NCBI RefSeq assembly: GCF_035084215.1
Contig: NC_090359.1
Location: forward strand, 24,738,001-24,802,000
Length of the DNA: 64,000 bases
DNA from: Heptranchias perlo
Lineage: Eukaryota
Direction: 5' to 3'
In this document: positions 1,231 to 58,363 of the stretch, piece by piece
Numbering within the stretch: position 1 is the first letter of the stretch
Layout of the letters: every line of letters starts with the position of its first letter
Program-made: the position numbers and the translations under genes
Notes under the pieces: generated by a model
The model's database searches: none
What the model was told of the DNA's origin: nothing
What the model saw: the letters and a program-made list of their open reading frames with translations, nothing else

Positions 1231-1384
1231 TTGGGTAGGGTTGGGGAAAAGTGCAAGGGGGAAAGGGGGAAGGGGGAGCTGGGAATGGGCAGCTTCACGA
1301 TGGCCAGGGAGAGGGGAACCTCGCTGCCGCATCGTTGGAGGTTTTCCCATTTTGGGGTGGGGTACCGGTCTCGGGCATCGAACG

Positions 1385-2370
1385 CTCCCAGGGCGGGTAC
1401 AGCACGGGTTAGATACAGAGTAAAGCTCCCTCTACACCGTCCCATCAAACACTCCCAGGGCAGGTACAGCACGGGTTAGATACAGAGTAAAGCTCCCTCT
1501 ACACCGTCCCATCAAACACTCCCAGGGCAGGTACAGCACGGGTTAGATACAGAGTAAAGCTCCCTCTACACTGTCCCATCAAACACTCCCAGGGCAGGTA
1601 CAGCACGGGTTAGATACAGAGTAAAGCTCCCTCTACACTGTCCAGTCAAACACTCCCAGAGCAGGGACAGCACGGGGTTAGATACAGAGTAAAGCTCCCT
1701 CTACACCGTCCCATCAAACACTCCCGGGGCAGGTACAGCACGGGTTAGATACAGAGTAAAGCTCCCTCTACACCGTGCCATCAAACACTCCCGGGGCAGG
1801 TACAGCACGGGGTTAGATACAGAGTAAAGCTCCCTCTACACTGTCCAGTCAAACACTCCCAGAGCAGGGACAGCACGGGGTTAGATACAGAGTAAAGCTC
1901 CCTCTACACCGTCCCATCAAACACTCCCAGGGCAGGTACAGCACGGGTTAGATACAGAGTAAAGCTCCCTCTACACTGTCCAGTCAAACACTCCCAGAGC
2001 AGGGACAGCACGGGGTTAGATACAGAGTAAAGCTCCCTCTACACCGTCCCATCAAACACTCCCGGGGCAGGTACAGCACGGGTTAGATACAGAGTAAAGC
2101 TCCCTCTACACCGTCCCATCAAACACTCCCGGGGCAGGTACAGCACGGGGTTAGATACAGAGTAAAGCTCCCTCTACACTGTCCAGTCAAACACTCCCAG
2201 AGCAGGGACAGCACGGGGTTAGATACAGAGTAAAGCTCCCTCTACACCGTCCCATCAAACACTCCCGGGGCAGGTACAGCACGGGTTAGATACAGAGTAA
2301 AGCTCCCTCTACACTGTCCAGTCAAACAGTCCCAGGTACATGGTGGGTTAGATTCAGTGTAAAGCTCCCT
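1385..2370 (+). repeat. 67/68-bp minisatellite array (ACAGCACGGGTTAGATACAGAGTAAAGCTCCCTCTACACTGTCCCATCAAACACTCCCAGGGCAGGT)
   Basis: About 14 direct tandem copies, with two interspersed variants. Confidence 0.95.
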
Positions 2371-7125: not shown

Positions 7126-7829
7126 AATAACGATCTCCTCGGCTAGCGTGCGTCCAAGTCATTTCAAGACTTGAACAGCGCTCCCATATCTGGGAGGCTC
7201 TTCGACACCTCTCACACTCCTACACATGGCAGAAGAAAAGGCGGGGCAATCTGATGGCCAACCCATCAAACTTTCTCCTCTCCATCTATTACATCGATGG
7301 TCAGCAAGGTAAGGGTACCAAGGGATGTGGAGTGTAGGCAGATAAATGGAATTAAAGTGCAGGTCAGCCATGATCCAATTGAATAGCGGGGCAGGCTCGA
7401 AGGACTCAATTGCCGACTCTTGTTCCCATGTTTCTGGACATCCCCCCCGCCCCATCTAATTGCAAATGTAATACCCAACACAATCTTCCTCCTCACCTCG
7501 AGACTAAACATACTGTCGGCACCTCAAAATCATTCGTTCTCAGAAACTCAAATCTGTGGCACGCCTCACCTCCCTCCTACGATCTGCAGGCTCATGCTTG
7601 GCTTCAGCTCACCGCTAACTCTTGATTGATCTCATCTTCTCTCCTCTTTCCTGCCCGCCCCCAACTCTGCTGATGTCCTACTCCCTGGGCCTCGGCTCCA
7701 CGGCTGATCCCCTTTTGATTGATCTGAAGCACACTGGTTCATCTCTTCACAAGTTTATCTGTCAATCCCTTCTCTCAGTTCCAGCTCCAGGCCGACACCC
7801 ACCCCCCCCCCCCCAACTCCACCAAGCGC

Positions 7830-8190
7830 CAGTACTGAGGGAGCGCTGCGCTGCTGGAGGTGTCATCTTTCGGATGAGACGATAAACCGAGGCCCCGTCT
7901 CCCCTCTCAGGTGGATGTAAAAGATCCCACGGCCACTATTTCGAAGGGGAGCAGGGGAGTTCTCCCCGGTGTCCTGGGCCAATATTTGGTAACCCTCAAC
8001 CAACATCTACAACAGGTGATCTGATCATTTATCACACTGCCGTTTGTGGGATCTTGCTGTGCACAAATTGGCTGCTGTGTTTCCTACATTACAACAGTGA
8101 CTACACTTCAAAAGTACTTCATTGGCTTTAAAGTGCTTTGGGACATCCTGAGGTTGTGAAAGTCACTATATAAATGCAAGTCTTTCTTTC
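7830..8190 (+). mobile_element. Deu-core SINE (SacSINE1-like)
   Basis: CCCCGGTGTCCTGGGCCAA core and L2-like tail ACTATATAAATGCAAG. Confidence 0.75.
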
Positions 8191-8517
8191 TTTCATCGCT
8201 AGCCAGTGACTACTAGTAGAAGTGCCAGTGGTTTGGCTGTGATGCCTCACATGGTTAAGTAGTGTCCAGGCTCACGCGTGAAGAGTGCCCCCCCCCCCCC
8301 CCCCTCCCGGCCTGCCAGCATTCATGGAATTATATCAAAAGAAGAAATAGGAGGGAAGTCATGAGGGGAGAAACTGAAGGAAAGGAGGAGATGTGATGGG
8401 GGAAATAATTGAAAATTGAGGGATTAAGAAAGGCAAATGGACTTGCATTTATACAGCGCCTTTCACAACCTCAGGATGTCCCGAAGCGCTTTACGGCCAA
8501 TGAATTATCCTTGAAAT

Positions 8518-8642
8518 CACTCACCTGACGAAGGAGGAAGCCTCCGAAAGCTTGTGATTTTAAATAAAGCTGTTGGACTATAACCTGGTGTTGTAAGACT
8601 CCTTACATTTGTCCACCCCAGGCCATCACCGGCATCTCCACA
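8518..8642 (+). mobile_element. Penelope-like element terminal fragment with 9-bp TSD, nested in a SINE
   Basis: Flanked by CCTTGAAAT (8509-8517 and 8643-8651). Carries a hammerhead motif, AATAAA and a tail resembling shark Penelope-type ends (from memory). Confidence 0.7.
8521..8557 (+). ncRNA. Minimal type I hammerhead ribozyme motif
   Basis: TCAC-CTGACGA-A-GGAGG(AAG)CCTCC-GAAA-GC-TT-GTGA: conserved core, 5-bp stem II, stem I TCAC/GTGA, palindromic AGCT stem III. Confidence 0.65.
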
Positions 8643-8704
8643 CCTTGAAATGTAGTCACTGTTGTTATGTAGGCAAACGCGACAGCCAATCTGCGCACAG
8701 CAAG

Positions 8705-9028
8705 AAGGGTTGCCAAGTCTGGTTGAACATATTCCAGGAGCTTTCGTCATATGACCTCCTGCTACCAATCAGCCCACTGCTGCACTCCCGCCATTGGTCA
8801 GTCAACACATCCATCCTGCCCATCCCACACCAATTGGAAAGCAAACAGACTCTTTGTTACCCGATTGGCTGATTCTTGACTGTCAGTCAAACAATCTTTT
8901 ATCCCATCTCCGATCTTTTTTTATGCCCCTCTATGATTTTCCTCCTGGGTTTCCTCACAGCAGTGTCTGGGAGATGAATCTTTAATTGCTGGAGACTCCA
9001 GGGCAATCCAGAAGAATTGGCGGCCATA
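8705..9028 (-). mobile_element. hAT-type MITE (same family as 5861-6223), nested in a SINE
   Basis: Starts AGGGTTGCCAAG; interior is the reverse complement of 5861-6223; right TIR degenerate. Confidence 0.65.
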
Positions 9029-9184
9029 AAAGTAAGGTCCCACAAAGAGTAAATGAGATAAGCTACCAGTTAATCTAGCTTGGTTCTATTGGTTAAGCAA
9101 TTTTACATGGAAATTACAGCACAGAAACTGGCCATTCGGCCCAACTGATCCATGCCAGTGTTTATGCTCCATATGAGCCTCCTA

Positions 9185-10050
9185 CATAAGAACATAAGAA
9201 ATAGGAGCAGGAGTAGGCCAATCGGCCCCTCGAGCCTGCTCCGCCATTCAATAAGGTCATGGCTGATCTGATCCTAACCTCAAATCTAAATTCATGTCTA
9301 ATTTCCTGCCCGCTCCCCGTAACCCCTAATTCCCTTTACTTCTAGGAAACTGTCTATTTCTGTTTTAAATTTATTTAATGATGTAGCTTCCACAGCTTCC
9401 TGGGGCAGCAAATTCCACAGACCTACTGCCCTCTGAGTGAAGAAGTTTTTCCTCATCTCAGTTTTGAAAGAGCAGCCCCTTATTCTAAGATTATGCCCCC
9501 TAGTTCTAGTTTCACCCATCCTTGGGAACATCCTTACCGCATCCACCCGATCAAGCCCCTTCACAATCTTATATGTTTCAATAAGATCGCCTCTCATTCT
9601 TCTGAACTCCAATGAGTAGAGTCCCAATCTACTCAACCTCTCCTCATATGTCCGCCCCCCTCATCCCCGGGATTAACCGAGTGAACCTTCTTTGTACTGC
9701 CTCGAGAGCAAGCATGTCTTTTCTTAAGTATGGAGACCAAAACTGTATGCAGTATTCCAGGTGCGGTCTCACCAATACCTTATATAACTGCAGCAATACC
9801 TCCCTGTTTTTATATTCTATCCCCCTGGCAATAAAAGCCAACATTCCGTTGGCCTTCTTGATCACCTGCTGCACCTGCATACTAACTCCCACCCTACCTC
9901 ATCCTTCTATTCCTTTCTCCCTCATGTGTTCATCTAACTTCCCCTTAAATGCATCTACACTATTCGCCTCAACTACTCCTTGTGATAGCGAGTTCCACAT
10001 TTTCACCACTCTCTGGGTAAAGAAGTTTCTCCTGAATTCCGTATTGGAAT
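9185..10050 (-). mobile_element. CR1 LINE fragments (nested)
   Basis: ORFs 9298..9636 and 9644..9892 give LVRPHLEYCIQFWSP and RRMRGDLIETYKI. Confidence 0.9.
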
Positions 10051-10319
10051 AGCCAAAACTGACACTTTGGTAAGCCTACATAATTCTATCCTTTACAAGC
10101 CATGGGAAAACACTTCCGTTACATCGTTAAATACATGCCGGTGCCAGGACCTGAACACAGACGTCAAGTGCAATCTCCATACAATTGACCGATTAGTGTG
10201 TTGACATCTGATATGCTGGCACCCGGGATTATTTTATTGACTCTTTCTTCACCTCAAGCTGTTGTTCACTTCAAGCTGTGCTCAGACGTACGTCGGACGT
10301 AAAAGTTTAACGGCGTAAA

Positions 10320-10850
10320 ACATTGAGCACTGTGCACAGTTCTGGTCTCCATATTATAAAAACAGATATAGAGGCACTGGTGAAGGTCTAAAAAAGATTT
10401 ACAAGGATGATACCAGAACTGAGAGGTTATAGCTATCAGGAAAGACTGAACTCTCTCGAAAAGAGAAGGCTGAGGGGGTGACCTGATCGAGGTCTTTACA
10501 ATTACGAAAGGGTTTGATAGGGTAGATGAAGAGAAAATGTCTTCATTTGTGGGGGAGACCAAAACTAGGGGCCAATAAATATAAGATAGTCACTAATAAA
10601 TCCAATAGAGAATTCAGGAGAAACTTCTTTACCCAGAGAGTGGTGAGAATGTGGAACTCGCTACCCGATGGAGTAGTTGAGGCGAATAGTGTAGATGCAT
10701 TTAAGGGGAAGCTAGATAAACACATGAGGGAGAAAGGAAGAGAAGGATATACTGATAGAGTGAGTGGGAGGAGGCTCGTGTGGAGCATAAACACCAGCAC
10801 AGACCAGTTGGCCTTAAGGGCCTGTTTCTGTGATGTACGTTCTATGTAAT
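10320..10850 (+). mobile_element. CR1 LINE, 3' fragment
   Basis: Translation RRNFFTQRVVRMWNSLP..FKGKLDK. Confidence 0.85.
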
Positions 10851-10956
10851 TCTATGAAATTCGATGGAAACGCTGCAACCCGTCTGTCACATCTCTTTTC
10901 TTTCTTCGGCCCAAAGCAATGTTCCCTGACAAAGGGAAGGAAAGAATGGAGCGGGG

Positions 10957-11680
10957 GTGGGGGGGTGGGTGGGAGGGCAGGGGGTTGGAGAGGGTGAGAG
11001 GGGCAGGGGTTTGGGGGGTGGGAGGGCAGGGAGTTGTGGGGGGTGGGAGGGCAGGGAGTTGGGGGGGGGGGGTGGGAGGGCAGGGAGTTGGGGGGGGGGG
11101 TGGGAGGGCAGGTGGTTGGGGGGGGGGTGGGAGGGCAGGGAGTTGGGGGGGGGGTGGGAGGGCAGGGAGTTGGGGGGGGGGTGGGAGGGCAGGGAGTTGG
11201 GGGGGGGGGTGGGAGGGCAGGGAGTTGGGGGGGGGTGGGAGGGCAGGGAGTTGGGGGGGTGGGAGGGCAGGGGTTTGGGGGTGGTGGGAGGGCAGGGTGT
11301 TGAGGGGGTGGGAGGGCAGGGTGTTGGGGGGGTGGGAGGGCAGGGTGTTGAGGGGGTGGGAGGGCAGGGTGTTGGGGGGGTGGGAGGGCAGGGTGTTGGG
11401 GGGGTGGGAGGGCAGGGTGTTGAGGGGGTGGGAGGGCAGGGTGTTGGGGGGGTGGGAGGGCAGGGTGTTGGGGGGGTGGGAGGGCAGGGTGTTGGGGGGG
11501 TGGGAGGGCAGGGTGTTGAGGGGGTGGGAGGGTGGGAGGGCAGGGGTTTGGGGGGGTGGGAGGGGCAGGGTGTTGGGGGTGGTGGGAGGGCAGGGTGTTG
11601 GGGGGGTGGGAGGGTGGGAGGGCAGGGGTTTGGGGGGGTGGGAGGGCAGGGTGTTGAGGGGGTGGGAGGGGCAGGCGGGT
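10957..11680 (+). repeat. G-rich ~24-bp minisatellite ([24 protein letters not shown])
   Basis: Tandem copies with variable G-runs. Confidence 0.9.
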
Positions 11681-11879
11681 GGCACTTACGTGGTGACAGT
11701 TTAAATTGATGCTGCATTATTAGTCCAGTAACGTAACCACCACACGATCGTACCCAATAACGTCACAGAATGGTAAAATGGTATGGTGCAGAAACATTCG
11801 GCCCATCAAGTCTGTGCAGGGGTTTATCCCCGTTTGAGCCACCGAGTCTAACCTCAGGCCCTGCACCCTGATAATATTC

Positions 11880-12215
11880 ATGCGGCAGCCAATTTGCGCA
11901 CAGCAAGGTCCAACAAACAGCGATGTGACAATGACCAGATAATCTGTTTCTCAGTGATGTCGGTTGAGGGATAAATATTGGCCCCAGGGAGAACTCCCAC
12001 TGCTCTTCTTCCAATAGTACCATGGGAACATTTACGTCCACCTGAGAGGGCAGACGGGACCTCAGTTTAGCGTCTCGTCCGAAAGACTGCACCTCTGACA
12101 GTGCAGCACTCCCTCAGCATTGTATTGGGAGTGTCGGCCTGGATTATGTGCTCAAGTCTCGGGAGTGGGACTTGAACCCATGACCTTCTGACTCAGAGGC
12201 GTGACCGCTACCAAG
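11880..12215 (-). mobile_element. Deu-core SINE
   Basis: Same family as 7830-8190, reverse orientation; B-box GGTTCAAGTCCC on the minus strand. Confidence 0.75.
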
Positions 12216-26140: not shown

Positions 26141-26971
26141 TGTTGGCAGGTTCCCTTTGAACCTTCCTCCTGACTGATTATGTTAAAACAGAGGAAAATC
26201 CCAGGTGGGAACCAATCATCACTGACACCAAACTGCCAGCCTAAAGGCTTGTCACTGTGAACAAAACTAAATTTTGATATTCTCGGTGTCAGAACTTCCT
26301 GTTTAAAACCTGCACAACCCACACAATTTCCTTCTGCAGAGGAATTTTGCTCTATTTATTTTTAAATGGTATGATGATTTAATTTAGCAATGCATCCTCT
26401 CTAATTACTGAGGCCCATAAGGTACAATTATGGTATCTGTTGTTCTGCAGAATGTCAGGCAACCATAAGGGGTGTGGCTCTAACCTGCTTGGAGACTGCC
26501 CGTCATCCTGGCCACGCCCACTCATTTGACAGACAGCCTTAGGGGATATCCATAAATGTCATCTTTTGGCAGTAGTGTACAAAGACTGGCCATTTGGTCA
26601 CCTCGCAGCTCCCCCACCTGCAAAAAAGACCTGAATATAAAATCTAACATTTAATCTTGCAGCAGTGATACAGTTACAGTAACATTAACCGTTCCCCTCC
26701 CCCTCGAAGACCCATGTGGAGGGAATGACAATCATGGACGCTCCCTTATTGGAACATCAAATTTAAAAGTGAGAGTGGAACTGTCACTCTTCCTTTACTT
26801 GAGTTGCAGCTACTCCATCAATTTTATGCTAGACAATTGCGGCCAGAAGATGAGTTCCCCATCACTATTTTTTCTCCGCATTCCATTACATTCAGGCAAT
26901 TTGAGCAGTGATTCAGGAGACCATAAGGGGCATCAGTGGCTGCAGAGAAGCCAAATCAAGGCTGTTTGGGC

Positions 26972-29900
26972 CTATTTGTTACATTGTTTCTATTTGTTAC
27001 ATTGTTTCTATTTATCACATTATCCCCTGTCAGTTACATTGTTTCTATTTGTTACATTGTTTCTATACATCACATTGTCCCCTGTCAGTTACATTGTTTC
27101 CATTTGTTACATTGTTTCCATTTGTTACATTGTTTCTATTTGTCACATTGTCCCCTGTCAGTTACATTGTTTCCATTTGTTACATTGTTTCTATTTGTTA
27201 CATTGTTTCTATTTATCACATTATCCCCTGTCAGTTACATTGTTTCCATTTGTTACATTGTTTCTATACATCACATTGTCCCGTCAGTTACATTGTTTCC
27301 ATTTGTTACATTGTTTCTATTTGTCACATTGTCCCCTGTCAGTTACATTGTTTCTATTTGTTACATTGTTTCTATTTGTTACATTATCCCCTGTCAGTTA
27401 CATTGTTTTAATTTGTTACATTGTCCCCTGTCAGTTACATTGTTTCTATTTGTTACATTGTCCCCTGTCAGTTACATTGTTTCTATTTGTTACATTGTCC
27501 CCTGTCAGTTACATTGATTCTGTTTGTTACATTGTTTCTATTTGTTACATTGTCCCCTGTCAGTTACATTGTTTCTATTTGTCACATTGTCCCCTGTCAG
27601 TTACATTGATTCTGTTTGTTACATTGTTTCTATTTGTCACATTGTCCCCTGTCAGTTACATTGTTTCTATTTGTCACATTGTCCTGTCAGTTACATTGTT
27701 TCTATTTGTTACATTGTTTCTATTTGTTACATTATCCCCTGTCAGTTACATTGTTTTAATTTGTTACATTGTCCCCTGTCAGTTACATTGTTTCTATTTG
27801 TTACATTGTCCCCTGTCAGTTACATTGTTTCTATTTGTTACATTGTCCCCTGTCAGTTACATTGATTCTGTTTGTTACATTGTTTCTATTTGTTACATTG
27901 TCCCCTGTCAGTTACATTGTTTCTATTTGTCACATTGTCCTGTCAGTTACATTGTTTCTATTTGTTACATTATCGCCTGTCAGTTACATTGTTTCTATTT
28001 GTTACATTGTCCCCTGTCAGTTACATTGTTTCTATTTGTTACATTGTCCCCTGTCAGTTACATTGTTTCAATTTGTTACATTGTCCCCTGTCAGTTACAT
28101 TGTTTCTATTTGTCACATTGTCCCCTGTCAGTTACATTGTTTCTATTTGTTACATTGTTTCTATTTGTCACATTGTCCCCTGTCAGTTACATTGCTGCTA
28201 TTTGTTACATTGTCCCCTGTCAGTTACATTGTTTCTATTTGTTACATTGTCCCCTGTCAGTTACATTGTTTCTATTTGTCACATTGTCCCCTGTCAGTTA
28301 CATTGTTTCCATTTGTTACATTGTTTCTATTTGTTACATTGTTTCTATTTATCACATTATCCCCTGTCAGTTACATTGTTTCCATTTGTTACATTGTTTC
28401 TATACATCACATTGTCCCGTCAGTTACATTGTTTCCATTTGTTACATTGTTTCTATTTGTCACATTGTCCCCTGTCAGTTACATTGTTTCTATTTGTTAC
28501 ATTGTTTCTATTTGTTACATTATCCCCTGTCAGTTACATTGTTTTAATTTGTTACATTGTCCCCTGTCAGTTACATTGTTTCTATTTGTTACATTGTCCC
28601 CTGTCAGTTACATTGTTTCTATTTGTCACATTGTCCCCTGTCAGTTACATTGATTCTGTTTGTTACATTGTTTCTATTTGTCACATTGTCCCCTGTCAGT
28701 TACATTGTTTCTATTTGTCACATTGTCCTGTCAGTTACATTGTTTCTATTTGTTACATTGTTTCTATTTGTTACATTATCCCCTGTCAGTTACATTGTTT
28801 TAATTTGTTACATTGTCCCCTGTCAGTTACATTGTTTCTATTTGTTACATTGTCCCCTGTCAGTTACATTGTTTCTATTTGTTACATTGTCCCCTGTCAG
28901 TTACATTGATTCTGTTTGTTACATTGTTTCTATTTGTTACATTGTCCCCTGTCAGTTACATTGTTTCTATTTGTCACATTGTCCTGTCAGTTACATTGTT
29001 TCTATTTGTTACATTATCGCCTGTCAGTTACATTGTTTCTATTTGTTACATTGTCCCCTGTCAGTTACATTGTTTCTATTTGTTACATTGTCCCCTGTCA
29101 GTTACATTGTTTCAATTTGTTACATTGTCCCCTGTCAGTTACATTGTTTCTATTTGTCACATTGTCCCCTGTCAGTTACATTGTTTCTATTTGTTACATT
29201 GTTTCTATTTGTCACATTGTCCCCTGTCAGTTACATTGCTGCTATTTGTTACATTGTCCCCTGTCAGTTACATTGTTTCTATTTGTTACATTGTCCCCTG
29301 TCAGTTACATTGTTTCTATTTGTCACATTGTCCCCTGTCAGTTACATTGTTTCCATTTGTTACATTGTTTCTATTTGTTACATTGTTTCTATTTATCACA
29401 TTATCCCCTGTCAGTTACATTGTTTCCATTTGTTACATTGTTTCTATACATCACATTGTCCCGTCAGTTACATTGTTTCCATTTGTTACATTGTTTCTAT
29501 TTGTCACATTGTCCCCTGTCAGTTACATTGTTTCTATTTGTTACATTGTTTCTATTTGTTACATTATCCCCTGTCAGTTACATTGTTTTAATTTGTTACA
29601 TTGTCCCCTGTCAGTTACATTGTTTCTATTTGTTACATTGTCCCCTGTCAGTTACATTGTTTCTATTTGTTACATTGTCCCCTGTCAGTTACATTGATTC
29701 TGTTTGTTACATTGTTTCTATTTGTTACATTGTCCCCTGTCAGTTACATTGTTTCTATTTGTCACATTGTCCCCTGTCAGTTACATTGATTCTGTTTGTT
29801 ACATTGTTTCTATTTGTCACATTGTCCCCTGTCAGTTACATTGTTTCTATTTGTCACATTGTCCTGTCAGTTACATTGTTTCTATTTGTTACATTGTTTC

Positions 29901-32900
29901 TATTTGTTACATTATCCCCTGTCAGTTACATTGTTTTAATTTGTTACATTGTCCCCTGTCAGTTACATTGTTTCTATTTGTTACATTGTCCCCTGTCAGT
30001 TACATTGTTTCTATTTGTTACATTGTCCCCTGTCAGTTACATTGATTCTGTTTGTTACATTGTTTCTATTTGTTACATTGTCCCCTGTCAGTTACATTGT
30101 TTCTATTTGTCACATTGTCCTGTCAGTTACATTGTTTCTATTTGTTACATTATCGCCTGTCAGTTACATTGTTTCTATTTGTTACATTGTCCCCTGTCAG
30201 TTACATTGTTTCTATTTGTTACATTGTCCCCTGTCAGTTACATTGTTTCAATTTGTTACATTGTCCCCTGTCAGTTACATTGTTTCTATTTGTCACATTG
30301 TCCCCTGTCAGTTACATTGTTTCTATTTGTTACATTGTTTCTATTTGTCACATTGTCCCCTGTCAGTTACATTGCTGCTATTTGTTACATTGTCCCCTGT
30401 CAGTTACATTGTTTCTATTTGTTACATTGTCCCCTGTCAGTTACATTGTTTCTATTTGTCACATTGTCCTGTCAGTTACATTGTTTCTATTTGTTACATT
30501 GTCCCCTGTCAGTTACATTGTTTCTATTTGTTACATTGTTTCTATTTGTTACACTGTCCCCTGTCAGTTACATTGTTTCTATTTGTCACATTGTCCTGTC
30601 AGTTACATTGTTTCTATTTGTTACATTGTCCCCTGTCAGTTACATTGTTTCTATTTGTTACATTGTCCCCTGTCAGTTACATTGTTTCTATTTGTCACAT
30701 TGTCCTGTCAGTTACATTGTTTCTATTTGTTACATTGTCCCCTGTCAGTTACATTGTTTCTATTTGTTACATTGTCCCCTGTCAGTTACATTGTTTCTAT
30801 TTGTCACATTGTCCTGTCAGTTACATTGTTTCTATTTGTTACATTGTCCCCTGTCAGTTACATTGTTTCTATTTGTTACATTGTCCCCTGTCAGTTACAT
30901 TGTTTCTATTTGTTACATTGTTTCTATTTGTTACATTATCGCCTGTCAGTTACATTGTTCTATTTGTCACATTGTCCCCTGTCAGTTACATTGTTTCTAT
31001 TTGTTACATTGTTTCTATTTGTCACATTGTCCTGTCAGTTACATTGTTTCTATTTGTTACATTGTCCCCTGTCAGTTACATTGATTCTGTTTGTTACATT
31101 GTTTCTATTTGTCACATTGTCCCCTGTCAGTTACATTGTTTCTATGTGTTACATTGTTTCTATTTGTCACATTGTCCCCTGTCAGTTACATTGTTTCTAT
31201 TTGTCACATTGTCCCCTGTCAGTTACATTGTTTCTATTTGTCACATTGTCCCCTGTCAGTTACATTGTTTCTATTTGTCACATTGTCCCCTGTCAGTTAC
31301 ATTGTTTCTATTTGTTACATTGTCCCCTGTCAGTTACATTATTTCTATTTGTTACATTGTTTCTATTTGTCACATTGTCCCCTGTCAGTTACATTGTTTC
31401 TATTTGTCACATTGTCCCCTGTCAGTTACATTGTTTCTATTTGTCACATTGTCCCCTGTCAGTTACATTGTTTCTATTTGTCACATTGTCCCCTGTCAGT
31501 TACATTGTTTCTATTTGTTACATTGTCCCCTGTCAGTTACATTGTTTCTATTTGTTACATTGTCCCCTGTCAGTTACATTGTTTCTATTTGTCACATTGT
31601 CCTGTCAGTTACATTGTTTCTATTTGTTACATTGTCCCCTGTCAGTTACATTGTTTCTATTTGTCACATTGTCCTGTCAGTTACATTGTTTCTATTTGTC
31701 ACATTGTCCCCTGTCAGTTACATTGTTTCTATTTGTCACATTGTCCCCTGTCAGTTACATTGTTTCTATTTGTCACATTGTCCCCTGTCAGTTACATTGT
31801 TTCTATTTGTTACATTGTCCCCTGTCAGTTACATTGTTTCTATTTGTTACATTGTCCCCTGTCAGTTACATTGTTTCTATTTGTCACATTGTCCTGTCAG
31901 TTACATTGTTTCTATTTGTCACATTGTCCCCTGTCAGTTACATTGTTTCTATTTGTTACATTGTCCTGTCAGTTACATTGTTTCTATTTGTTACATTGTC
32001 CCCTGTCAGTTACATTGTTTCTATTTGTTACATTGTCCCCTGTCAGTTACATTGTTTCTATTTGTTACATTGTCCCCTGTCAGTTACATTGTTTCTATTT
32101 GTTACATTGTCCCCTGTCAGTTACATTGTTTCTATTTGTTACATTGTCCCCTGTCAGTTACATTGTTTCTATTTGTTACATTGTCCCCTGTCAGTTACAT
32201 TGTTTCTATTTGTTACATTGTCCCCTGTCAGTTACATTGTTTCTATTTGTTACATTGTTTCTATTTGTTACACTGTCCCCTGTCAGTTACATTGTTTCTA
32301 TTTGTCACATTGTCCCCTGTCAGTTACATTGTTTCTATTTGTTACATTGTCCCCTGTCAGTTACATTGTTTCTATTTGTTACATTGTCCCCTGTCAGTTA
32401 CATTGTTTCTATTTGTTACATTGTCCCCTGTCAGTCACATTGTTTCTATTTGTTACATTGTTTCTATTTGTTACACTCTCCCCTGTCAGTTACATTGTTT
32501 CTATTTGTCACATTGTCCCCTGTCAGTTACATTGTTTCTATTTGTTACATTGTCCCCTGTCAGTTACATTGTTTCTATTTGTTACATTGTCCCCTGTCAG
32601 TTACATTGTTTCTATTTGTTACATTGTCCCCTGTGAGTTACATTGTTTCTATTTGTTACATTGTTTCTATTTGTTACACTGTCCCCTGTCAGTTACATTG
32701 TTTCTATTTGTCACATTGTCCCCTGTCAGTTACATTGTTTCTATTTGTTACATTGTTTCTATTTGTTACATTGTTTCTATTTGTCACATTGTCCCCTGTC
32801 AGTTACATTGTTTCTATTTGTTACATTGTCCCCTGTCAGTTACATTGTTTCTATTTGTTACATTGTCCCCTGTCAGTTACATTGTTTCTATTTGTTACAT

Positions 32901-35390
32901 TGTCCCCTGTCAGTTACATTGTTTCTATTTGTTACATTGTTTCTATTTGTTACACTGTCCCCTGTCAGTTACATTGTTTCTATTTGTCACATTGTCCCCT
33001 GTCAGTTACATTGTTTCTATTTGTTACATTGTTTCTATTTGTTACATTGTTTCTATTTGTTACATTGTTTCTATTTGTTACACTGTCCCCTGTCAGTTAC
33101 ATTGTTTCTATTTGTTACATTGTCCCCTGTCAGTTACATTGTTTCTATTTGTTACATTGTCCCCTGTCAGTTACATTGTTTCTATTTGTTACATTGTTTC
33201 TATTTGTTACATTGTTTCTATTTGTTACATTGTTTCTATTTGTTACATTGTTTCTATTTGTCACATTGTCCCCTGTCAGTTACATTGTTTCTATTTGTTA
33301 CATTGTTTCTATTTGTTACATTGTTTCTATTTGTTACATTGTTTCTATTTGTCACATTGTCCCCTGTCAGTTACATTGTTTCTATTTGTTACATTGTCCC
33401 CTGTCAGTTACATTGTTTCTATTTGTTACATTGTCCCCTGTCAGTTACATTGTTTCTATTTGTTACATTGTCCCCTGTCAGTTACATTGTTTCTATTTGT
33501 TACATTGTTTCTATTTGTTACACTGTCCCCTGTCAGTTACATTGTTTCTATTTGTCACATTGTCCCCTGTCAGTTACATTGTTTCTATTTGTTACATTGT
33601 TTCTATTTGTTACATTGTTTCTATTTGTTACACTGTCCCCTGTCAGTTACATTGTTTCTATTTGTTACATTGTCCCCTGTCAGTTACATTGTTTCTATTT
33701 GTTACACTGTCCCCTGTCAGTTACATTGTTTCTATTTGTTACACTGTCCCCTGTCAGTTACACTGTTTCTATTTGTTACATTGTCCCCTGTCAGTTACAT
33801 TGTTTCTATTTGTTACATTGTCCCCTGTCAGTTACATTGTTTCTATTTGTTACATTGTTTCTATTTGTTACACTGTCCCCTGTCAGTTACATTGTTTCTA
33901 TTTGTCACATTGTCCCCTGTCAGTTACATTGTTTCTATTTGTTACATTGTTTCTATTTGTTACATTGTTTCTATTTGTTACACTGTCCCCTGTCAGTTAC
34001 ATTGTTTCTATTTGTTACATTGTCCCCTGTCAGTTACATTGTTTCTATTTGTTACACTGTCCCCTGTCAGTTACATTGTTTCTATTTGTTACATTGTCCC
34101 CTGTCAGTTACATTGTTTCTATTTGTTACATTGTCCCCTGTCAGTTACATTGTTTCTATTTGTTACATTGTCCCCTGTCAGTTACATTGTTTTTATTTGT
34201 TACATTGTCCCCTGTCAGTTACATTGTTTCTATTTGTTACACTGTCCCCTGTCAGTTACATTGTTTCTATTTGTTACATTGTCCCCTGTCAGTTACATTG
34301 TTTCTATTTGTTACATTGTCCCCTGTCAGTTACATTGTTTCTATTTGTTACATTGTCCCCTGTCAGTTACATTGTTTCTATTTGTTACATTGTCCCCTGT
34401 CAGTTACATTGTTTCTATTTGTTACATTGTCCCCTGTCAGTTACATTGTTTCTATTTGTTACATTGTTTCTATTTGTTACACTGTCCCTTGTCAGTTACA
34501 TTGTTTCTATTTGTCACATTGTCCCCTGTCAGTTACATTGTTTCTATTTGTTACATTGTCCCCTGTCAGTTACATTGTTTCTATTTGTTACATTGTCCCC
34601 TGTCAGTTACATTGTTTCTATTTGTTACATTGTCCCCTGTCAGTTACATTGTTTGTATTTGTTACACTGTCCCCTGTCAGTTACATTGTTTCTATTTGTT
34701 ACATTGTCCCCTGTCAGTTACATTGTTTCTATTTGTTACATTGTCCCCTGTCAGTTACATTGTTTCTATTTGTTACATTGTCCCCTGTCAGTTACATTGT
34801 TTCTATTTGTTACATTGTCCCCTGTCAGTTACATTGTTTCTATTTGTTACATTGTTTCTATTTGTTACATTGTTTCTATTTGTTACACTGTCCCCTGTCA
34901 GTTACATTGTTTCTATTTGTCACATTGTCCCCTGTCAGTTACATTGTTTCTATTTGTTACATTGTCCCCTGTCAGTTACATTGTTTCTATTTGTTACATT
35001 GTCCCCTGTCAGTTACATTGTTTCTATTTGTTACATTGTTTCTATTTGTTACATTGTTTCTATTTGTTACACTGTCCCCTGTCAGTTACATTGTTTCTAT
35101 TTGTCACATTGTCCCCTGTCAGTTACATTGTTTCTATTTGTTACATTGTCCCCTGTCAGTTACATTGTTTCTATTTGTTACATTGTCCCCTGTCAGTTAC
35201 ATTGTTTCTATTTGTTACATTGTTTCTATTTGTTACACTGTCCCCTGTCAGTTACATTGTTTCTATTTGTCACATTGTCCCCTGTCAGTTACATTGTTTC
35301 TATTTGTCACATTGTCCCCTGTCAGTTACATTGTTTCTATTTGTTACATTGTTTCTATTTGTTACATTGTTTCTATTTGTTACATTGTCC
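26972..35390 (+). repeat. 8.4-kb satellite of 18-bp (GTTACATTGTTTCTATTT) and 19-bp (GTTACATTGTCCCCTGTCA) monomers, mostly as a 37-bp dimer
   Basis: Directly visible tandem array; about 450 monomers, estimated from length. Confidence 0.98.
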
Positions 35391-35626
35391 ACTTGTTGTT
35401 TTCCCCTTTCTCTCCCTCTCATTCGCCGTCCCACTCCTTCCGGCGCTGTTGCGGGATCCGCTCCTCGGTTGCTCTCTGCTGCCGCCTCATTCTGTCTTCT
35501 TGTCGGTCTCTGTGCTGAGCAGGAAGCCTGTGTGGTCCGAGAGCCGAGAGCCGAGAGCCGAGCCGCCGGGTTAAAGCCTTGAGCCACATTTCGGCACAGA
35601 GAAAACCAACGCTCCCTGTCCCCGCC

Positions 35627-35711
35627 ATGGGCACCTACGGACCGGCTAACGAGAAACTCCGCAACCTGGAGGAGATCGAGAAGGAGATCGCGACCATCCT
35701 TCAGAGCGCAG
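35627..35711 (+). CDS. MED11: Mediator subunit 11, coding exon 1 (MGTYGPANEKLRNLEEIEKEIATILQSA)
   Basis: GCCATGG Kozak; similar to human [29 protein letters not shown]; 85 nt, G|GT donor. Confidence 0.93.
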
Positions 35712-36300
35712 GTGGGAGGGAGAGTGAGTGGGAGGAAAGAGAGAGGGGGCAGAGAGAGAGAGAACAAAGAGATGAGAGAAAGGAGAGAGGGATGAGAGGG
35801 GGAAGAGAGAGGGAAAGGAGAGAGGGATGAGAGGGGCAAGAGAGAGGGAAAGGAGAGAGGGAAGAGAGAGGGAAAGGAGAGAGGGAAGAGAGGGGGAACA
35901 GAGAGAGAGAAAGGAGAGGGGAACAGAGAGGGAAAGGAGAGAGGGATGAGAGGGGGAAGAGAGAGAAAGGAGGGAGAGAGGGATGAGAGGGGGAACAGAG
36001 AGGAGAGGGATGAGAGGGGGAACAGAGAGGAGAGGGATGAGAGGGGGAACAGAGAGGGAAAGGAGAGAGGGATGAGAGGGAAAGGAGAGAGAGAGGGAGG
36101 GAAAGGAAAGAGAGAGAGAAAGGATAGAGGGATGAGAGAGGGAGAGAGAGAAAGAGGGAAAGGAAAGAGAGGGAGAAAGGAGAGAGAGAGAGAGAAGGGA
36201 TGAGAGGGAGGGAAAGGAGAGAGGGAGGGAAAAAGAAAGGAGAGAGGGATGGGAGGGGGAACAGAGAGGAGAGAGAAGGGAGAGAGGGAGATGGGGAAGG
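35712..36300 (+). repeat. GA-rich polypurine tract in MED11 intron 1
   Basis: Almost only A and G on the + strand. Confidence 0.9.
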
Positions 36301-37574: not shown

Positions 37575-37705
37575 CCAATGCCATCCTGGAAATGTCGAAG
37601 GAGAAGCCGGCTGAACGGACCCTGGACCGTCACGCCCTGCAATTTACTGCCTCGGTCCAGCGCGTCGAAATGGAACTCTCGAGTCAGATCCGCTATCTGA
37701 CCCAG
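37575..37705 (+). CDS. MED11: MED11 exon 2 ([44 protein letters not shown])
   Basis: CAG acceptor and CAG|GTGAG donor; 131 nt, in frame with exon 1; conserved ELSxQIRYLTQ. Confidence 0.93.
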
Positions 37706-39708: not shown

Positions 39709-39849
39709 GTCGCTACGGGGCAGCCGCACGAAGGGTCCAGCTATTCCACCAGGAAGGATGCGCAGATGGCGGTGAATCGAGTGGAGTACACGCACATGAA
39801 AGTGCGGGACCTCGTCAAGACCTGTGAGCAGATGCTGGAGCAGCCGTGA
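39709..39849 (+). CDS. MED11: MED11 exon 3 ([46 protein letters not shown]); total 118 aa
   Basis: Long pyrimidine tract plus AAG acceptor; conserved [12 protein letters not shown] motif; TGA at 39847-39849. Confidence 0.93.
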
Positions 39850-41686: not shown

Positions 41687-41692
41687 AATAAA
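41687..41692 (+). terminator. Probable MED11 polyadenylation signal
   Basis: First AATAAA I found after the stop codon; U-rich upstream (TGTA motifs) and GT-rich downstream. Confidence 0.55.
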
Positions 41693-41974: not shown

Positions 41975-42880
41975 GCTCTTTACTCTGTATCTAACCCCGT
42001 GCTGTACCTGCCCTGGGAGTGTTTGATGGGACAGTGTCGAGGGAGCTTTACTCTGTATCTAACCCGTGCTGTACCTGCCCTGGGAGTGTTTGATGGGACA
42101 GTGTCGAGGGAGCTTTACTCTGTATCTAACCCGTGCTGTACCTGCCCTGGGAGTGTTTGATGGGACAGTGTCGAGGGAGCTTTACTCTGTATCTAACCCG
42201 TGCTGTACCTGCCCTGGGAGTGTTTGATGGGACAGTGTAGGGGGAGCTTTACTCTGTATCTAACCCGTGCTGTACCTGCCCTGGGAGTGTTTGATGGGAC
42301 AGTGTAGAGGGAGCTTTACTCTGTATCTAACCCGTGCTGTACCTGCCCTGGGAGTGTTTGATGGGACAGTGTAGAGGGAGCTTTACTCTGTATCTAACCT
42401 GTGCAGTACCTGCCCTGGGAGTGTTTGATGGGACAGTGTAGAGGGAGCTTTACTCTGTATCTAACCCGTGCTGTACCTGCCCTGGGAGTGTTTGATGGGA
42501 CAGCGTAGAGGGAGCTTTACTCTGTACCTAACCCGTGCTGTACCTGCCCTGGGAGTGTTTGATGGGACAGTGTAGAGGGAGCTTTACTCTGTATCTAACC
42601 CGTGCTGTACCTGCCCTGGGAGTGTTTGATGGGACAGTGTAGAGGGAGCTTTACTCTGTATCTAACCCGTGCTGTACCTGCCCTGGGAGTGTTTGATGGG
42701 ACAGTGTAGAGGGAGCTTTACTCTGTATCTAACCCGTGCTGTACCTGCCCTGGGAGTGTTTGATGGGACAGTGTAGAGGGAGCTTTACTCTGTATCTAAC
42801 CTGTGCAGTACCTGCCCTGGGAGTGTTTGATGGGACAGTGTAGAGGGAGCTTTACTCTGTATCTAATCCATGCTGTATCT
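41975..42880 (-). repeat. 67-bp minisatellite array (reverse orientation)
   Basis: About 13 copies, reverse complement of the 1385-2370 unit. Confidence 0.95.
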
Positions 42881-56180: not shown

Positions 56181-56508
56181 TCCATCAAACACTCCCAGGG
56201 CAGGTACAGCAAGGGTTAGATACAGAGTAAAGCTCCCTCTACACTGTCCCATCAAACACTCCCAGGGCAGGTACAGCATGGGTTAGATACAGAGTAAAGC
56301 TCCCTCTACACTGTCCCAACAAACACTCCCGGGTTAGATACAGAGTAAAGCTCCCTCTACATGTCCCATCAAACACTCCCAGGGCAGGAACAGCACGGGT
56401 TAGATACAGAGTAAAGCTCCCTCTACGCTGTCCCATCAAACACTCCCAGGGCGGGTACAGCATAGGTTAGATTCAGAGTAAAGCTCCCTCTCCGCTGTCC
56501 CATCAAAC
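56181..56508 (+). repeat. 67-bp minisatellite array
   Basis: About 5 copies. Confidence 0.9.
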
Positions 56509-56653
56509 AACAATGAGATGCACGGCCGATTAATCTGTCTTTTGGTGGCGTTTGTAACCCGAGGAGTGTTGCCTCAGGGCGGCATTATTGCAGGGCTTGA
56601 CCAGCTGCTTAACGAACTGATCATAAGATTTTCTATTTCTGTACTTTATCTAG

Positions 56654-56733: not shown

Positions 56734-57520
56734 GTGAGTCAGGATCTGTGCACTTAGAGAGTGTGGTCAATCACCCATGGCATTCCGCATAGGGAGTTCA
56801 GATCAAGTGTAACCATCAGGTGAAGTGGGGGATAATGGAACCAGGGTTCGCAGACAGCATTCAGTCCCCGTTTTAAAGCTATACCTTCCATCGTTAATTG
56901 TAATTAATACTTTGATTTGATATTATTATTTACATCTAAATAGGAAGCTGAGGGCAATTTGGGGGGGGGCCAAGAAGTAGAGTTCATTGGAGCACAAGAG
57001 TTTCTCTGGAGTGCAGGCTATGGGGCTGGGAGACGTGAAACTGAGGGGCTACAGCGCCGCCAGTGGTGGGAGGGTGTATTCACAGCGTGACACGTTTACG
57101 TAGGTTATTTCCATTGTAAACAGGGGCATGGGGAATTTATAATGGCGAAAGTCAATGCAAAAATGTGACAATAGGATGCAGCTTTCCAAGATAGGACGTG
57201 TACACAGATGTAAAACTTAAAAAAAATATATATATTCCAGATGTCTCGAAAGTAAAGTTAAAAAAATTGTAAAGAGGTGGGTGAGCAGCGGGTTAAACAC
57301 TGACCTTTGAACTCAGGGACTTGAGCTGAACCCAGCCTCCTGGGCTGAAGGCCTCCTGTATTTCCTGGGTCTGTGGTTCAACGTGACAGAGTGTGAGTAA
57401 TCTCCTCGAAACAGTTTCACATTGACAGAAGTTGAAAAGCTCTCCTGTTTTCATCAGTCATCTCCAAACTGCACACAATAACAACTTTTAAAAATGGAAA
57501 TAGGAACTTGGAACAGCTCA

Positions 57521-58363
57521 GAGACAGAGTAAAGCTCCCTCTACACTGTCCCGTCAAACACTCCCAGGGCAGGTACAGCACGGGTTAGATACAGAGTAAA
57601 GCTCCCTCTACACTGTCCCATCAAACACTCCCAGGACAGCTTACAGCACGGGTTAGATACAGAGTAAAGCTCCCTCTACACTGTCCCGTCAAACACTCCC
57701 AGGGCAGGTTACAGCATGGGTTTGATACAGAGTAAAGCTCCCTCTACACTGTCCCATCAAACACTCCCAGGGCAGGTACAGCACGGGTTAGATACAGAGT
57801 AAAGCTCCCTCTACACTGTCCCATCAAACACTCCCCGGGCAGGTACAGCACGGGTTAGATACAGAGTAAAGCTCCCTCTACACTGTCCCGTCAAACACTC
57901 CCGGGGCAGGTACAGCACGGGTTAGATACAGAGTAAAGCTCCCTCTACACTGTCCCATCAAACACTCCCAGGGCGGGTACAACACGGGTTAGATACAGAG
58001 TAAAGCTCCCTCTACACTGTCCCATCAAACACTCCCAGGGCGGGTACAACACGGGTTAGATACAGAGTAAAGCTCCCTCTACACTGTCCCATCAAACACT
58101 CCCAGGGCGGGTACAACACGGGTTAGATACAGAGTAAAGCTCCCTCTACACTGTCCCATCAAACACTCCCAGGGCAGGTACAGCACGGGTTAGATACAGA
58201 GTAAAGCCCCCTCTACACTGTCCCATCAAACACTCCCAGGGCAGGTACAGCACGGGTTAGATACAGAGTAAAGCTCCCTCTACACTGTCCCATCAAACAC
58301 TCCCAGGGCAGGTACAGCATGGGTTAGATACAGAGTAAAGCTCCCTCTACACTGTCCCATCAA
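57521..58363 (+). repeat. 67-bp minisatellite array
   Basis: About 12.5 copies. Confidence 0.95.

What the first reader, a model, noticed from the sequence alone, without database searches (positions are those of the whole stretch)
26972..35390. 8.4-kb satellite built of DMRT/Doublesex-type sites, abutting the MED11 promoter
Seen: the standard monomers carry the 13-bp pseudo-palindrome GTTACA-T-TGTTTC or GTTACA-T-TGTCCC (about 450 monomers by length), and the array ends about 240 bp before the MED11 ATG. Known: DM-domain proteins (DMRT1, Dsx) bind RNNACAWTGTNNY. TTGTTACATTGTTTC, present wherever two 18-mers are adjacent, fits the DMRT1 ChIP consensus TWGHWACAWTGTWDC (recalled) at every position. 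CATTGT is also a SOX HMG core. Inference: the array could be a very large homotypic DMRT/SOX platform or sink acting on a Mediator head subunit gene, with copy-number or sex-dependent effects. Chance origin from one AT-rich seed is equally possible.
Basis: partly seen in the sequence, partly recalled or inferred. Interest (0 to 1): 0.7.

Follow-up and report, generated by a model that had tools for sequence, protein, structure and literature searches.

The report
Runaway DMRT-site repeat at MED11 promoter
Just upstream of a shark's MED11 gene lies a repeat 4 or 8 kb long, depending on the chromosome copy, with 100 to 230 matches to the DNA word bound by DMRT regulators of sex and development; it likely grew from one of the small clusters of such words found at other gene starts in this genome, but binding and any effect on MED11 are untested.

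Summary
The array is real: 459 units of 17-19 bp ending 238 bp before the MED11 start codon. It is a single-locus minisatellite, not a satellite family. The second haplotype carries 4.1 kb instead of 8.4 kb. Such length differences are normal here (23 of 28 neighbouring arrays differ by 10% or more).

The 18-bp unit fits the strict DMRT consensus (230 sites); the 19-bp unit does not. Unit variants do not avoid the core, and about 0.6 such arrays are expected per genome by chance.

Against pure chance: close pairs of full DM-type sites occur at 15 other loci. Short clusters lie near CpG islands in 15 of 21 cases, against 20 of 78 for ordinary short arrays, including first exons of PLK1, LASP1 and a 14-3-3 gene.

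Best reading: a promoter DM-site cluster that expanded by ordinary minisatellite turnover. It is likely bindable, but its size is probably unselected. A sex-specific platform or sink is not supported. The scan earlier noted one such cluster elsewhere in this genome (e1-9302552).

The parts
26972..35390 (.). Minisatellite (VNTR) of 459 units of 17-19 bp; 240 full 13-bp DM-type sites, 230 strict sites; 34% GC, 7 CpG; second haplotype 4091 bp with 223 units
27124..30470 (.). Older, variant-rich 5' part; a block of about 1.04-1.14 kb is present three times here and once in the second haplotype
   Evidence: exact repeats of 1166, 1101 and 764 bp; unit strings of both alleles
31150..35390 (.). Homogeneous promoter-side half; differs most between alleles; holds 19 of the 20 centre-changed units
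35380..35720 (+). CpG-island promoter region of MED11 with two ETS-like words (35437, 35520; motif recalled) and no TATA or CCAAT box; start site not mapped
35607..35711 (+). MED11 exon 1 as far as RNA contigs reach; ATG at 35627
37575..37705 (+). MED11 exon 2
39709..39849 (+). MED11 exon 3 to the stop codon (no Pfam hit on its own); candidate polyA signal at 41687
26644..26810 (.). Unique left flank, identical in both haplotypes; held by a run of organism B with 6 differences in 167 bases (contig depth 3.5, so some may be errors)

Best explanation
The array is a single-locus, length-variable minisatellite at the MED11 promoter that likely grew by ordinary tandem turnover from a small cluster of DM-domain binding sites, of a kind that recurs at other gene starts in this genome. 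Shown: the array, its two alleles, the motif match, the gene, and the other clusters. Inferred: the seed was a real regulatory element; DMRT proteins (DMRT3/DMRTA types as much as DMRT1) would bind the A units where they are expressed and could modestly tune MED11 in those cells; the 4-8 kb size is a by-product of a region where 39% of the DNA is tandem repeat, not an adaptation.
For: Single locus: 221 exact B-type units genome-wide = 141 here + 80 on C1237. C1237 is colinear with 0.48% SNPs, so it reads as the other allele. Ordinary VNTR behaviour: 23 of 28 arrays compared differ by 10% or more between haplotypes, 9 of 28 twofold or more. Class of clusters: 66 close pairs at 15 independent loci; palindromes with other arms give 0 and 0; the mirror control has 149 matches, the first 100 at 2 loci. 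Short full-site clusters lie within 300 bp of a CpG island in 15 of 21 cases, against 20 of 78 ordinary short arrays (p=2e-4) and 1 of 20 single sites. Six sit at first exons named by tools: PLK1, LASP1, 14-3-3, a RING-B-box gene, a B-box gene and an SDF transporter. Twelve DM-domain matches exist in the genome; one aligns almost letter for letter with human DMRT1 over 54 residues (E 2e-31). A chance strict array this close to a start codon has about 0.6 x 0.16%, or 0.001, expected per genome (22,000 genes assumed).
Against: The MED11 array is atypical of the class. It is kilobases long, while 0 of 4 other kb-scale full-site arrays touch a CpG island. It is AT-rich and lacks the CpG-containing left flank most class members have. 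My CpG-island rule is loose: 5 of 10 long arrays in this region pass it, this one included. Short core-only arrays also pass in 3 of 6 cases, not different from full-site ones (p=0.37). One control palindrome gave 122 matches, the first 100 at 13 places, all of one 8-bp simple-repeat type, flanks not fetched. Clusters with G or C at the centre also occur (123 matches, first 100 at 7 loci), and 2 of 3 fetched touch CpG islands, so the binder may not be DMRT1. Single sites are not enriched genome-wide (about 4,960 outside the array against 4,984 for the centre-changed control). Two clusters lie inside open frames and may be coding repeats. No binding, chromatin or tissue data were available.
Confidence: 0.5

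Rival explanations
1. Pure coincidence: an AT-rich seed with no regulatory history happened to match the DMRT motif and expanded next to a promoter in a repeat-rich region; it is unrelated to the small clusters and has no effect.
For: About 56,000 arrays of 1 kb or more are estimated genome-wide (9 in 520 kb; range 26,000-107,000), giving 0.6 strict arrays by chance. Arrays with the 10-bp core are common and no commoner than the mirror control (788 against 667 and 4,536 against 8,249 matches). A 46-kb-or-longer 29-bp array on C1 has the 13-bp site and no CpG island in its left flank. The unit is low in complexity (15-bp mirror symmetry) and also fits recalled forkhead and SOX words. No core-preserving bias.
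Against: Being within 240 bp of a start codon is a 0.16% event per array if arrays are placed at random, and the same motif independently marks other gene starts.
Confidence: 0.28
2. Selected mega-platform or sink: the hundreds of sites are maintained to load DMRT/SOX proteins on the MED11 promoter or to titrate them, with copy-number or sex-dependent effects.
For: The array holds 20% (long allele) or 9% (short allele) of the haploid genome's strict matches. The same units are present in a run of another organism label. DMRT1 binds and activates alpha satellite in human germ-cell models (PMC10567552 section 12). Dmrt1 and Sox9 are male-biased in juvenile bamboo shark gonads (10.1101/2025.03.13.642935 passages).
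Against: Twofold allelic difference like the neighbours. No variant bias, and centre-broken units accumulate at the promoter end. Mammalian DMRT1 occupies 7,818-11,920 peaks or tens of thousands of sites, so 100-230 more are a small sink. A section heading of PMC3322331 reports larger contiguous decoy arrays to be less effective (outline). No paper holds both MED11 and DMRT1 as whole words.
Confidence: 0.1
3. The promoter clusters and this array are real binding elements, but of another factor that reads the same inverted arms with a free centre base, not of DMRT proteins.
For: Centre-G/C clusters occur in the same CpG-rich setting. The named neighbours are broadly expressed genes rather than gonad genes (gene roles recalled).
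Against: DMRT5 selects or tolerates G at 0 and C at +4. By eye the class's commonest form equals the centre of the DMRT2 probe in PMC1931443 Methods. No other factor with this motif came up in my searches.
Confidence: 0.12

Closest known systems
Human TRIB3 promoter 33-bp VNTR (PMC7425993; abstract and outline seen)
   Same: A promoter factor site amplified in tandem, single in relatives, variable in copy number
   Different: 1-5 copies with a measured effect on expression; here 105-230 strict sites, DM-type, effect untested
DMRT response elements of mouse DMRT1-7 (PMC1931443; sections 5 and 6 and Methods passages seen; supplement not readable)
   Same: 13-bp inverted repeat with G at -6 and A/T centre. 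By eye the A unit matches the DMRT1 probe at 15 of 17 and the DMRT3 probe at 14 of 15 positions; the B unit matches the DMRT5 probe at 14 of 15
   Different: Those are single sites tested in vitro; no shark protein or array has been tested; my probe comparison has no computed control
DMRT1 binding to human ALR/alpha satellite and LTR12C (PMC10567552; passages and section 12 seen)
   Same: A DM protein acting on repeated DNA in germ cells
   Different: Centromeric or dispersed repeats with measured peaks; here one promoter-adjacent locus built almost wholly of sites
Izanagi transposon Dmrt1 site in the medaka dmrt1bY promoter (PMC2820524; abstract and outline seen)
   Same: Repeat-derived DMRT site near a promoter in a fish
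   Different: One site brought by a transposon and shown to work; here local tandem expansion, no transposon origin seen
Hypervariable human minisatellites (PMC2599865; passages seen)
   Same: 9-100 bp units, interspersed variant units, alleles differing in length and structure
   Different: None of substance; this is the family it belongs to
Decoy arrays of repeated factor sites (PMC3322331; abstract and outline seen)
   Same: Tandem sites that could sequester a factor
   Different: Synthetic yeast system with measured titration; not shown here

Membership tests
Minisatellite / VNTR | Tandem units of 9-100 bp | tested here: met
   459 units of 17-19 bp
Minisatellite / VNTR | Single locus | tested here: met
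   All 221 exact B-type units are in the two alleles
Minisatellite / VNTR | Allelic length and structure variation | tested here: met
   8417 against 4091 bp, different unit strings; one individual only
Multi-locus satellite family | Same unit at many or very large loci | tested here: not met
DMRT1 response element | 13-bp inverted repeat, G at -6, A/T centre, no G at -8, no C at +4 | tested here: met
   Met by A-type units (240 of 459 full sites, 230 strict); B-type units have C at +4 on the + strand and fail the strict consensus on both
DMRT1 response element | Cognate DM protein present and conserved | tested here: met
   12 DM-domain matches; one close to human DMRT1 over 54 residues
DMRT1 response element | Binding in vitro or in chromatin | not testable with these tools
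   No binding data available
DMRT1 response element | Sequence constraint on the site | tested here: not met
   7 of 22 distinct substitutions fall in the 7-bp core, 8.3 expected
Shark promoter DM-site clusters (class seen here) | Two or more full sites within 30 bp | tested here: met
Shark promoter DM-site clusters (class seen here) | Within 300 bp of a CpG island or first exon | tested here: met
   Abuts the island; 238 bp to the ATG
Shark promoter DM-site clusters (class seen here) | Short (36-624 bp) with CpG-rich spacers | tested here: not met
   8.4 kb, 7 CpG
Expression-modulating promoter VNTR (TRIB3 type) | Copy number changes expression | not testable with these tools
   Only contigs of one sample of this organism were laid
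Decoy / sink array | Large share of the factor's bound sites | tested here: inconclusive
   9-20% of strict matches but small against mammalian peak numbers

The most novel reading that the evidence does not exclude
Sharks use clusters of DM-domain sites at the starts of housekeeping and cell-cycle genes (PLK1, 14-3-3, LASP1, TRIM genes, MED11) as a DMRT-driven promoter module, probably in germ cells, and tandem turnover tunes the number of sites. At MED11 it has run to 100-230 strict sites, so a core Mediator subunit would carry a heritable, copy-number-graded DMRT input.
Probability: 0.2. Interest if true: 0.8.

Novelty: new variant of a known kind. Interest (0 to 1): 0.52.

Why it matters
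If the reading holds, it shows how a repeat-prone shark genome turns small promoter elements into kilobase arrays. It also points to a set of candidate DMRT target promoters in a lineage where DMRT targets did not come up in my searches. In the mammalian data seen, DMRT1 binds mostly introns and intergenic DNA, so clusters at gene starts would be a different arrangement. The two MED11 alleles in one animal give a ready allele-specific test.

Tried and rejected
Multi-locus satellite or transposon origin: rejected, single locus. Assembly artefact as the whole story: rejected; the second haplotype and contigs of four DNA runs of the same sample hold the units, though the threefold block in the long allele was not checked against raw reads. 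Hairpin-driven instability: the strand folds no better than shuffles (z -1.0, 32 of 200). Transcription of the array: no RNA holder on record; array contigs in a run guessed to be RNA are shallow, so no conclusion. Start site: contigs begin at 35607 but cannot show a start. Divergent gene behind the array: no Pfam hit among 18 upstream frames of 110 aa or more and no contig in 35391-35606; neither excludes one. My 'Murphy-rule' site class was too loose (it passes B units on the reverse strand) and is not used. The centre-G/C pattern failed as a negative control. Sex linkage: not tested; the shark X is reported as homologous to human chromosome 12 (10.1101/2022.10.17.512540 passages) and human MED11 is on chromosome 17 (recalled). 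A matrix from the 2007 selection data could not be built because the supplement is unreadable; the 2015 structure paper was not held. A computed, shuffle-controlled comparison of the units with the published probes is missing, so those matches are by eye. PMC13100897 (passages) gave nothing relevant. Literature searches (listings only) showed no report of this array or of DMRT-site clusters at shark promoters; bioRxiv supplements were closed and could hold such lists.
Full report
Observation. The window is G000:C38:24,738,001-24,802,000 in a 3.25-Gb genome. The array runs from 26972 to 35388 and has 459 units: an 18-bp A unit (221 exact copies), a 19-bp B family and rarer variants. It ends 238 bp before the ATG of a three-exon, 118-aa gene. 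That gene is MED11 by Pfam (exons 1 and 2, below the curated cut-off) and by PDB match. Contigs from three runs guessed to be RNA splice exon 1 to exon 2; two of them begin at 35607.

Motif. Of 459 units, 412 keep the 7-bp core, 240 carry the full 13-bp site and 230 the strict 15-bp consensus on one strand or the other. Only 9 of 400,000 shuffles of the A unit contain the strict motif. The strict consensus is recalled and was found in no paper, so I checked the rules in PMC1931443: G at -6, no G at -8, and G at 0 or C at +4 not selected by DMRT1 but selected by DMRT5. The B unit has C at +4. By eye, without a computed control, the A unit matches the paper's DMRT1 probe at 15 of 17 positions and its DMRT3 probe at 14 of 15, and the B unit matches the DMRT5 probe at 14 of 15. 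The genome has 12 DM-domain matches, one close to human DMRT1.

What kind of repeat. All 221 exact B-type units in the genome lie here (141) or on contig C1237 (80). C1237 is colinear with this region at 0.48% SNPs and reads as the other allele; its array is 4,091 bp. The alleles share the variant-rich 5' block, which is tripled in the long allele, and differ most at the promoter end. The region is 39% tandem repeat, with 32 arrays of 300 bp or more in 264 kb. Of the 28 that could be compared, 23 differ by 10% or more and 9 twofold or more. Small shark chromosomes are reported to be rich in tandem repeats (10.1101/2022.10.17.512540 passages). A run labelled as another organism holds an 85-base contig of the same units in an order absent from both alleles, and a flank with 6 differences in 167 bases at low depth. 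The array is therefore likely older than this species, though adjacency there is not shown.

No sign of selection on the array. Pooling both alleles, 7 of 22 distinct substitutions fall in the core (p=0.37) and 14 of 22 in the 13-bp site (p=0.32). Centre-changed units rise from 0 to 14 per quarter toward the promoter in the long allele.

Chance. Fifty-two 10-kb samples hold 9 arrays of 1 kb or more, about 56,000 genome-wide. With 1,204 strict matches outside the array, 0.63 strict arrays are expected (0.29-1.19). Arrays with the 10-bp core are common, at 18 loci in the first 100 rows, and no commoner than the mirror control. The motif match alone is thus unremarkable. The position is less so: about 0.16% of arrays would end within 240 bp of a start codon (000 genes assumed).

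A class of promoter clusters. Close pairs of full sites gave 66 matches, all listed, at 15 independent loci with unrelated spacers; searches added more. Controls: two palindromes with other arms gave 0 and 0 (the mirror of the second had 71 matches, not listed). A third gave 122 matches, the first 100 at 13 places, all of one simple-repeat type. The mirror pattern gave 149, the first 100 at 2 loci. Of 25 full-site loci scored, 15 lie within 300 bp of a non-repeat CpG island (C1169 not scored, C1 scored on its left flank only), against 3 of 19 core-only arrays, 8 of 52 random points and 1 of 20 single sites. Size-matched, the figures are 15 of 21 against 20 of 78 ordinary short arrays (p=2e-4), but only against 3 of 6 short core-only arrays (p=0.37). 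Six clusters sit at first exons named by tools: 230 bp into the intron after the first PLK1 exon seen, 57 bp after the first LASP1 exon, 247 bp after a 14-3-3 exon, 266 and 26 bp before the ATGs of two B-box genes, and inside the first coding exon of an SDF transporter. Centre-G/C clusters occur in the same setting, which fits DMRT5-like tolerance or another factor.

Does MED11 belong? It meets the site and position criteria but is an outlier in size and CpG content. None of 4 other kb-scale full-site arrays touches an island, and my island rule passes 5 of 10 long arrays in this region. Some class members use the same left half-site as MED11, for example the LASP1 and C42 clusters. I put descent from a real cluster at 0.5, chance at 0.28, another binder at 0.12 and a selected platform or sink at 0.1.

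Mechanism. Shown: array, alleles, motif, gene, other clusters. Inferred: a few promoter-proximal sites were duplicated, then grew by unequal exchange and conversion as in human minisatellites (PMC2599865 passages). Where DMRT proteins are expressed they would likely occupy accessible A units; DMRT1 can open chromatin (PMC8216462 passages) and acts on alpha satellite (PMC10567552 section 12). Any effect on MED11 is probably a tissue-limited modulation of an otherwise ordinary CpG-island promoter. As a sink, the array holds 9-20% of strict matches, few beside mammalian peak numbers. Dmrt1 is male-biased in juvenile shark gonads but was not detected in gonadal primordia, so a role in sex determination is unlikely.

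Verdict. A real and unusually large VNTR of DM-type sites, best filed as a new variant of promoter VNTRs of the TRIB3 type. The wider class of DM-site clusters at shark gene starts is the more testable result. Searches (listings only) showed no description of either.

Noticed in passing
L124, L126-L129, L132, L135, L155-L159, L161, L163, L285, L286 (G000 C7, C9, C11, C12, C18, C25, C28, C33, C34, C36, C37, C42, C44, C47): Short clusters of 2-24 DM-type sites at CpG islands or first exons, including PLK1, LASP1, 14-3-3, two B-box genes, an SDF transporter and, by recalled resemblance only, a calpain small subunit gene (L161, 85 bp before the ATG)
   Followed up: partly
L205 (C1:196.60 Mb) and L220 (C12:58.52 Mb): Clusters of 13 and 3 perfectly palindromic sites with G/C at the centre, touching CpG islands
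   Followed up: partly
L119-L123 (C1:115,908,658 to at least 115,955,000): A 29-bp satellite of at least 46 kb with the 13-bp site; its unit resembles the B unit beyond the searched motif, and 18-bp sub-arrays lie at its left end; common origin not tested
   Followed up: partly
L130-L131 (C1169 from 16,815): 26-bp AT-rich array with full DM-type sites on an unplaced contig; not scored
   Followed up: no
C25:15.10-15.15 Mb: Dozens of palindromic DM-type sites, often in pairs 99 bp apart, in a larger repeated unit; similar repeated centre-C sites on C20 and C23
   Followed up: no
L124 3749-5794 (-) and L129 4786-5397 (+): DM-type site repeats lie inside open reading frames (682 aa without Pfam hit; SDF transporter N-terminus)
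   Followed up: no
window 1376-2336, 41978-42877, 56182-56509, 57520-58363: A dispersed 67-bp minisatellite family, four arrays in the window, varying up to fourfold between haplotypes
   Followed up: partly
   Followed up: no
C38 about 24,931,000-24,965,000 against C1237: A stretch of about 33 kb on C38 corresponds to about 1 kb on the other haplotype
   Followed up: no
L055-L066: Twelve DM-domain matches, with three-gene groups on C4 and C9 and apparently broken copies on C45 and C46
   Followed up: no
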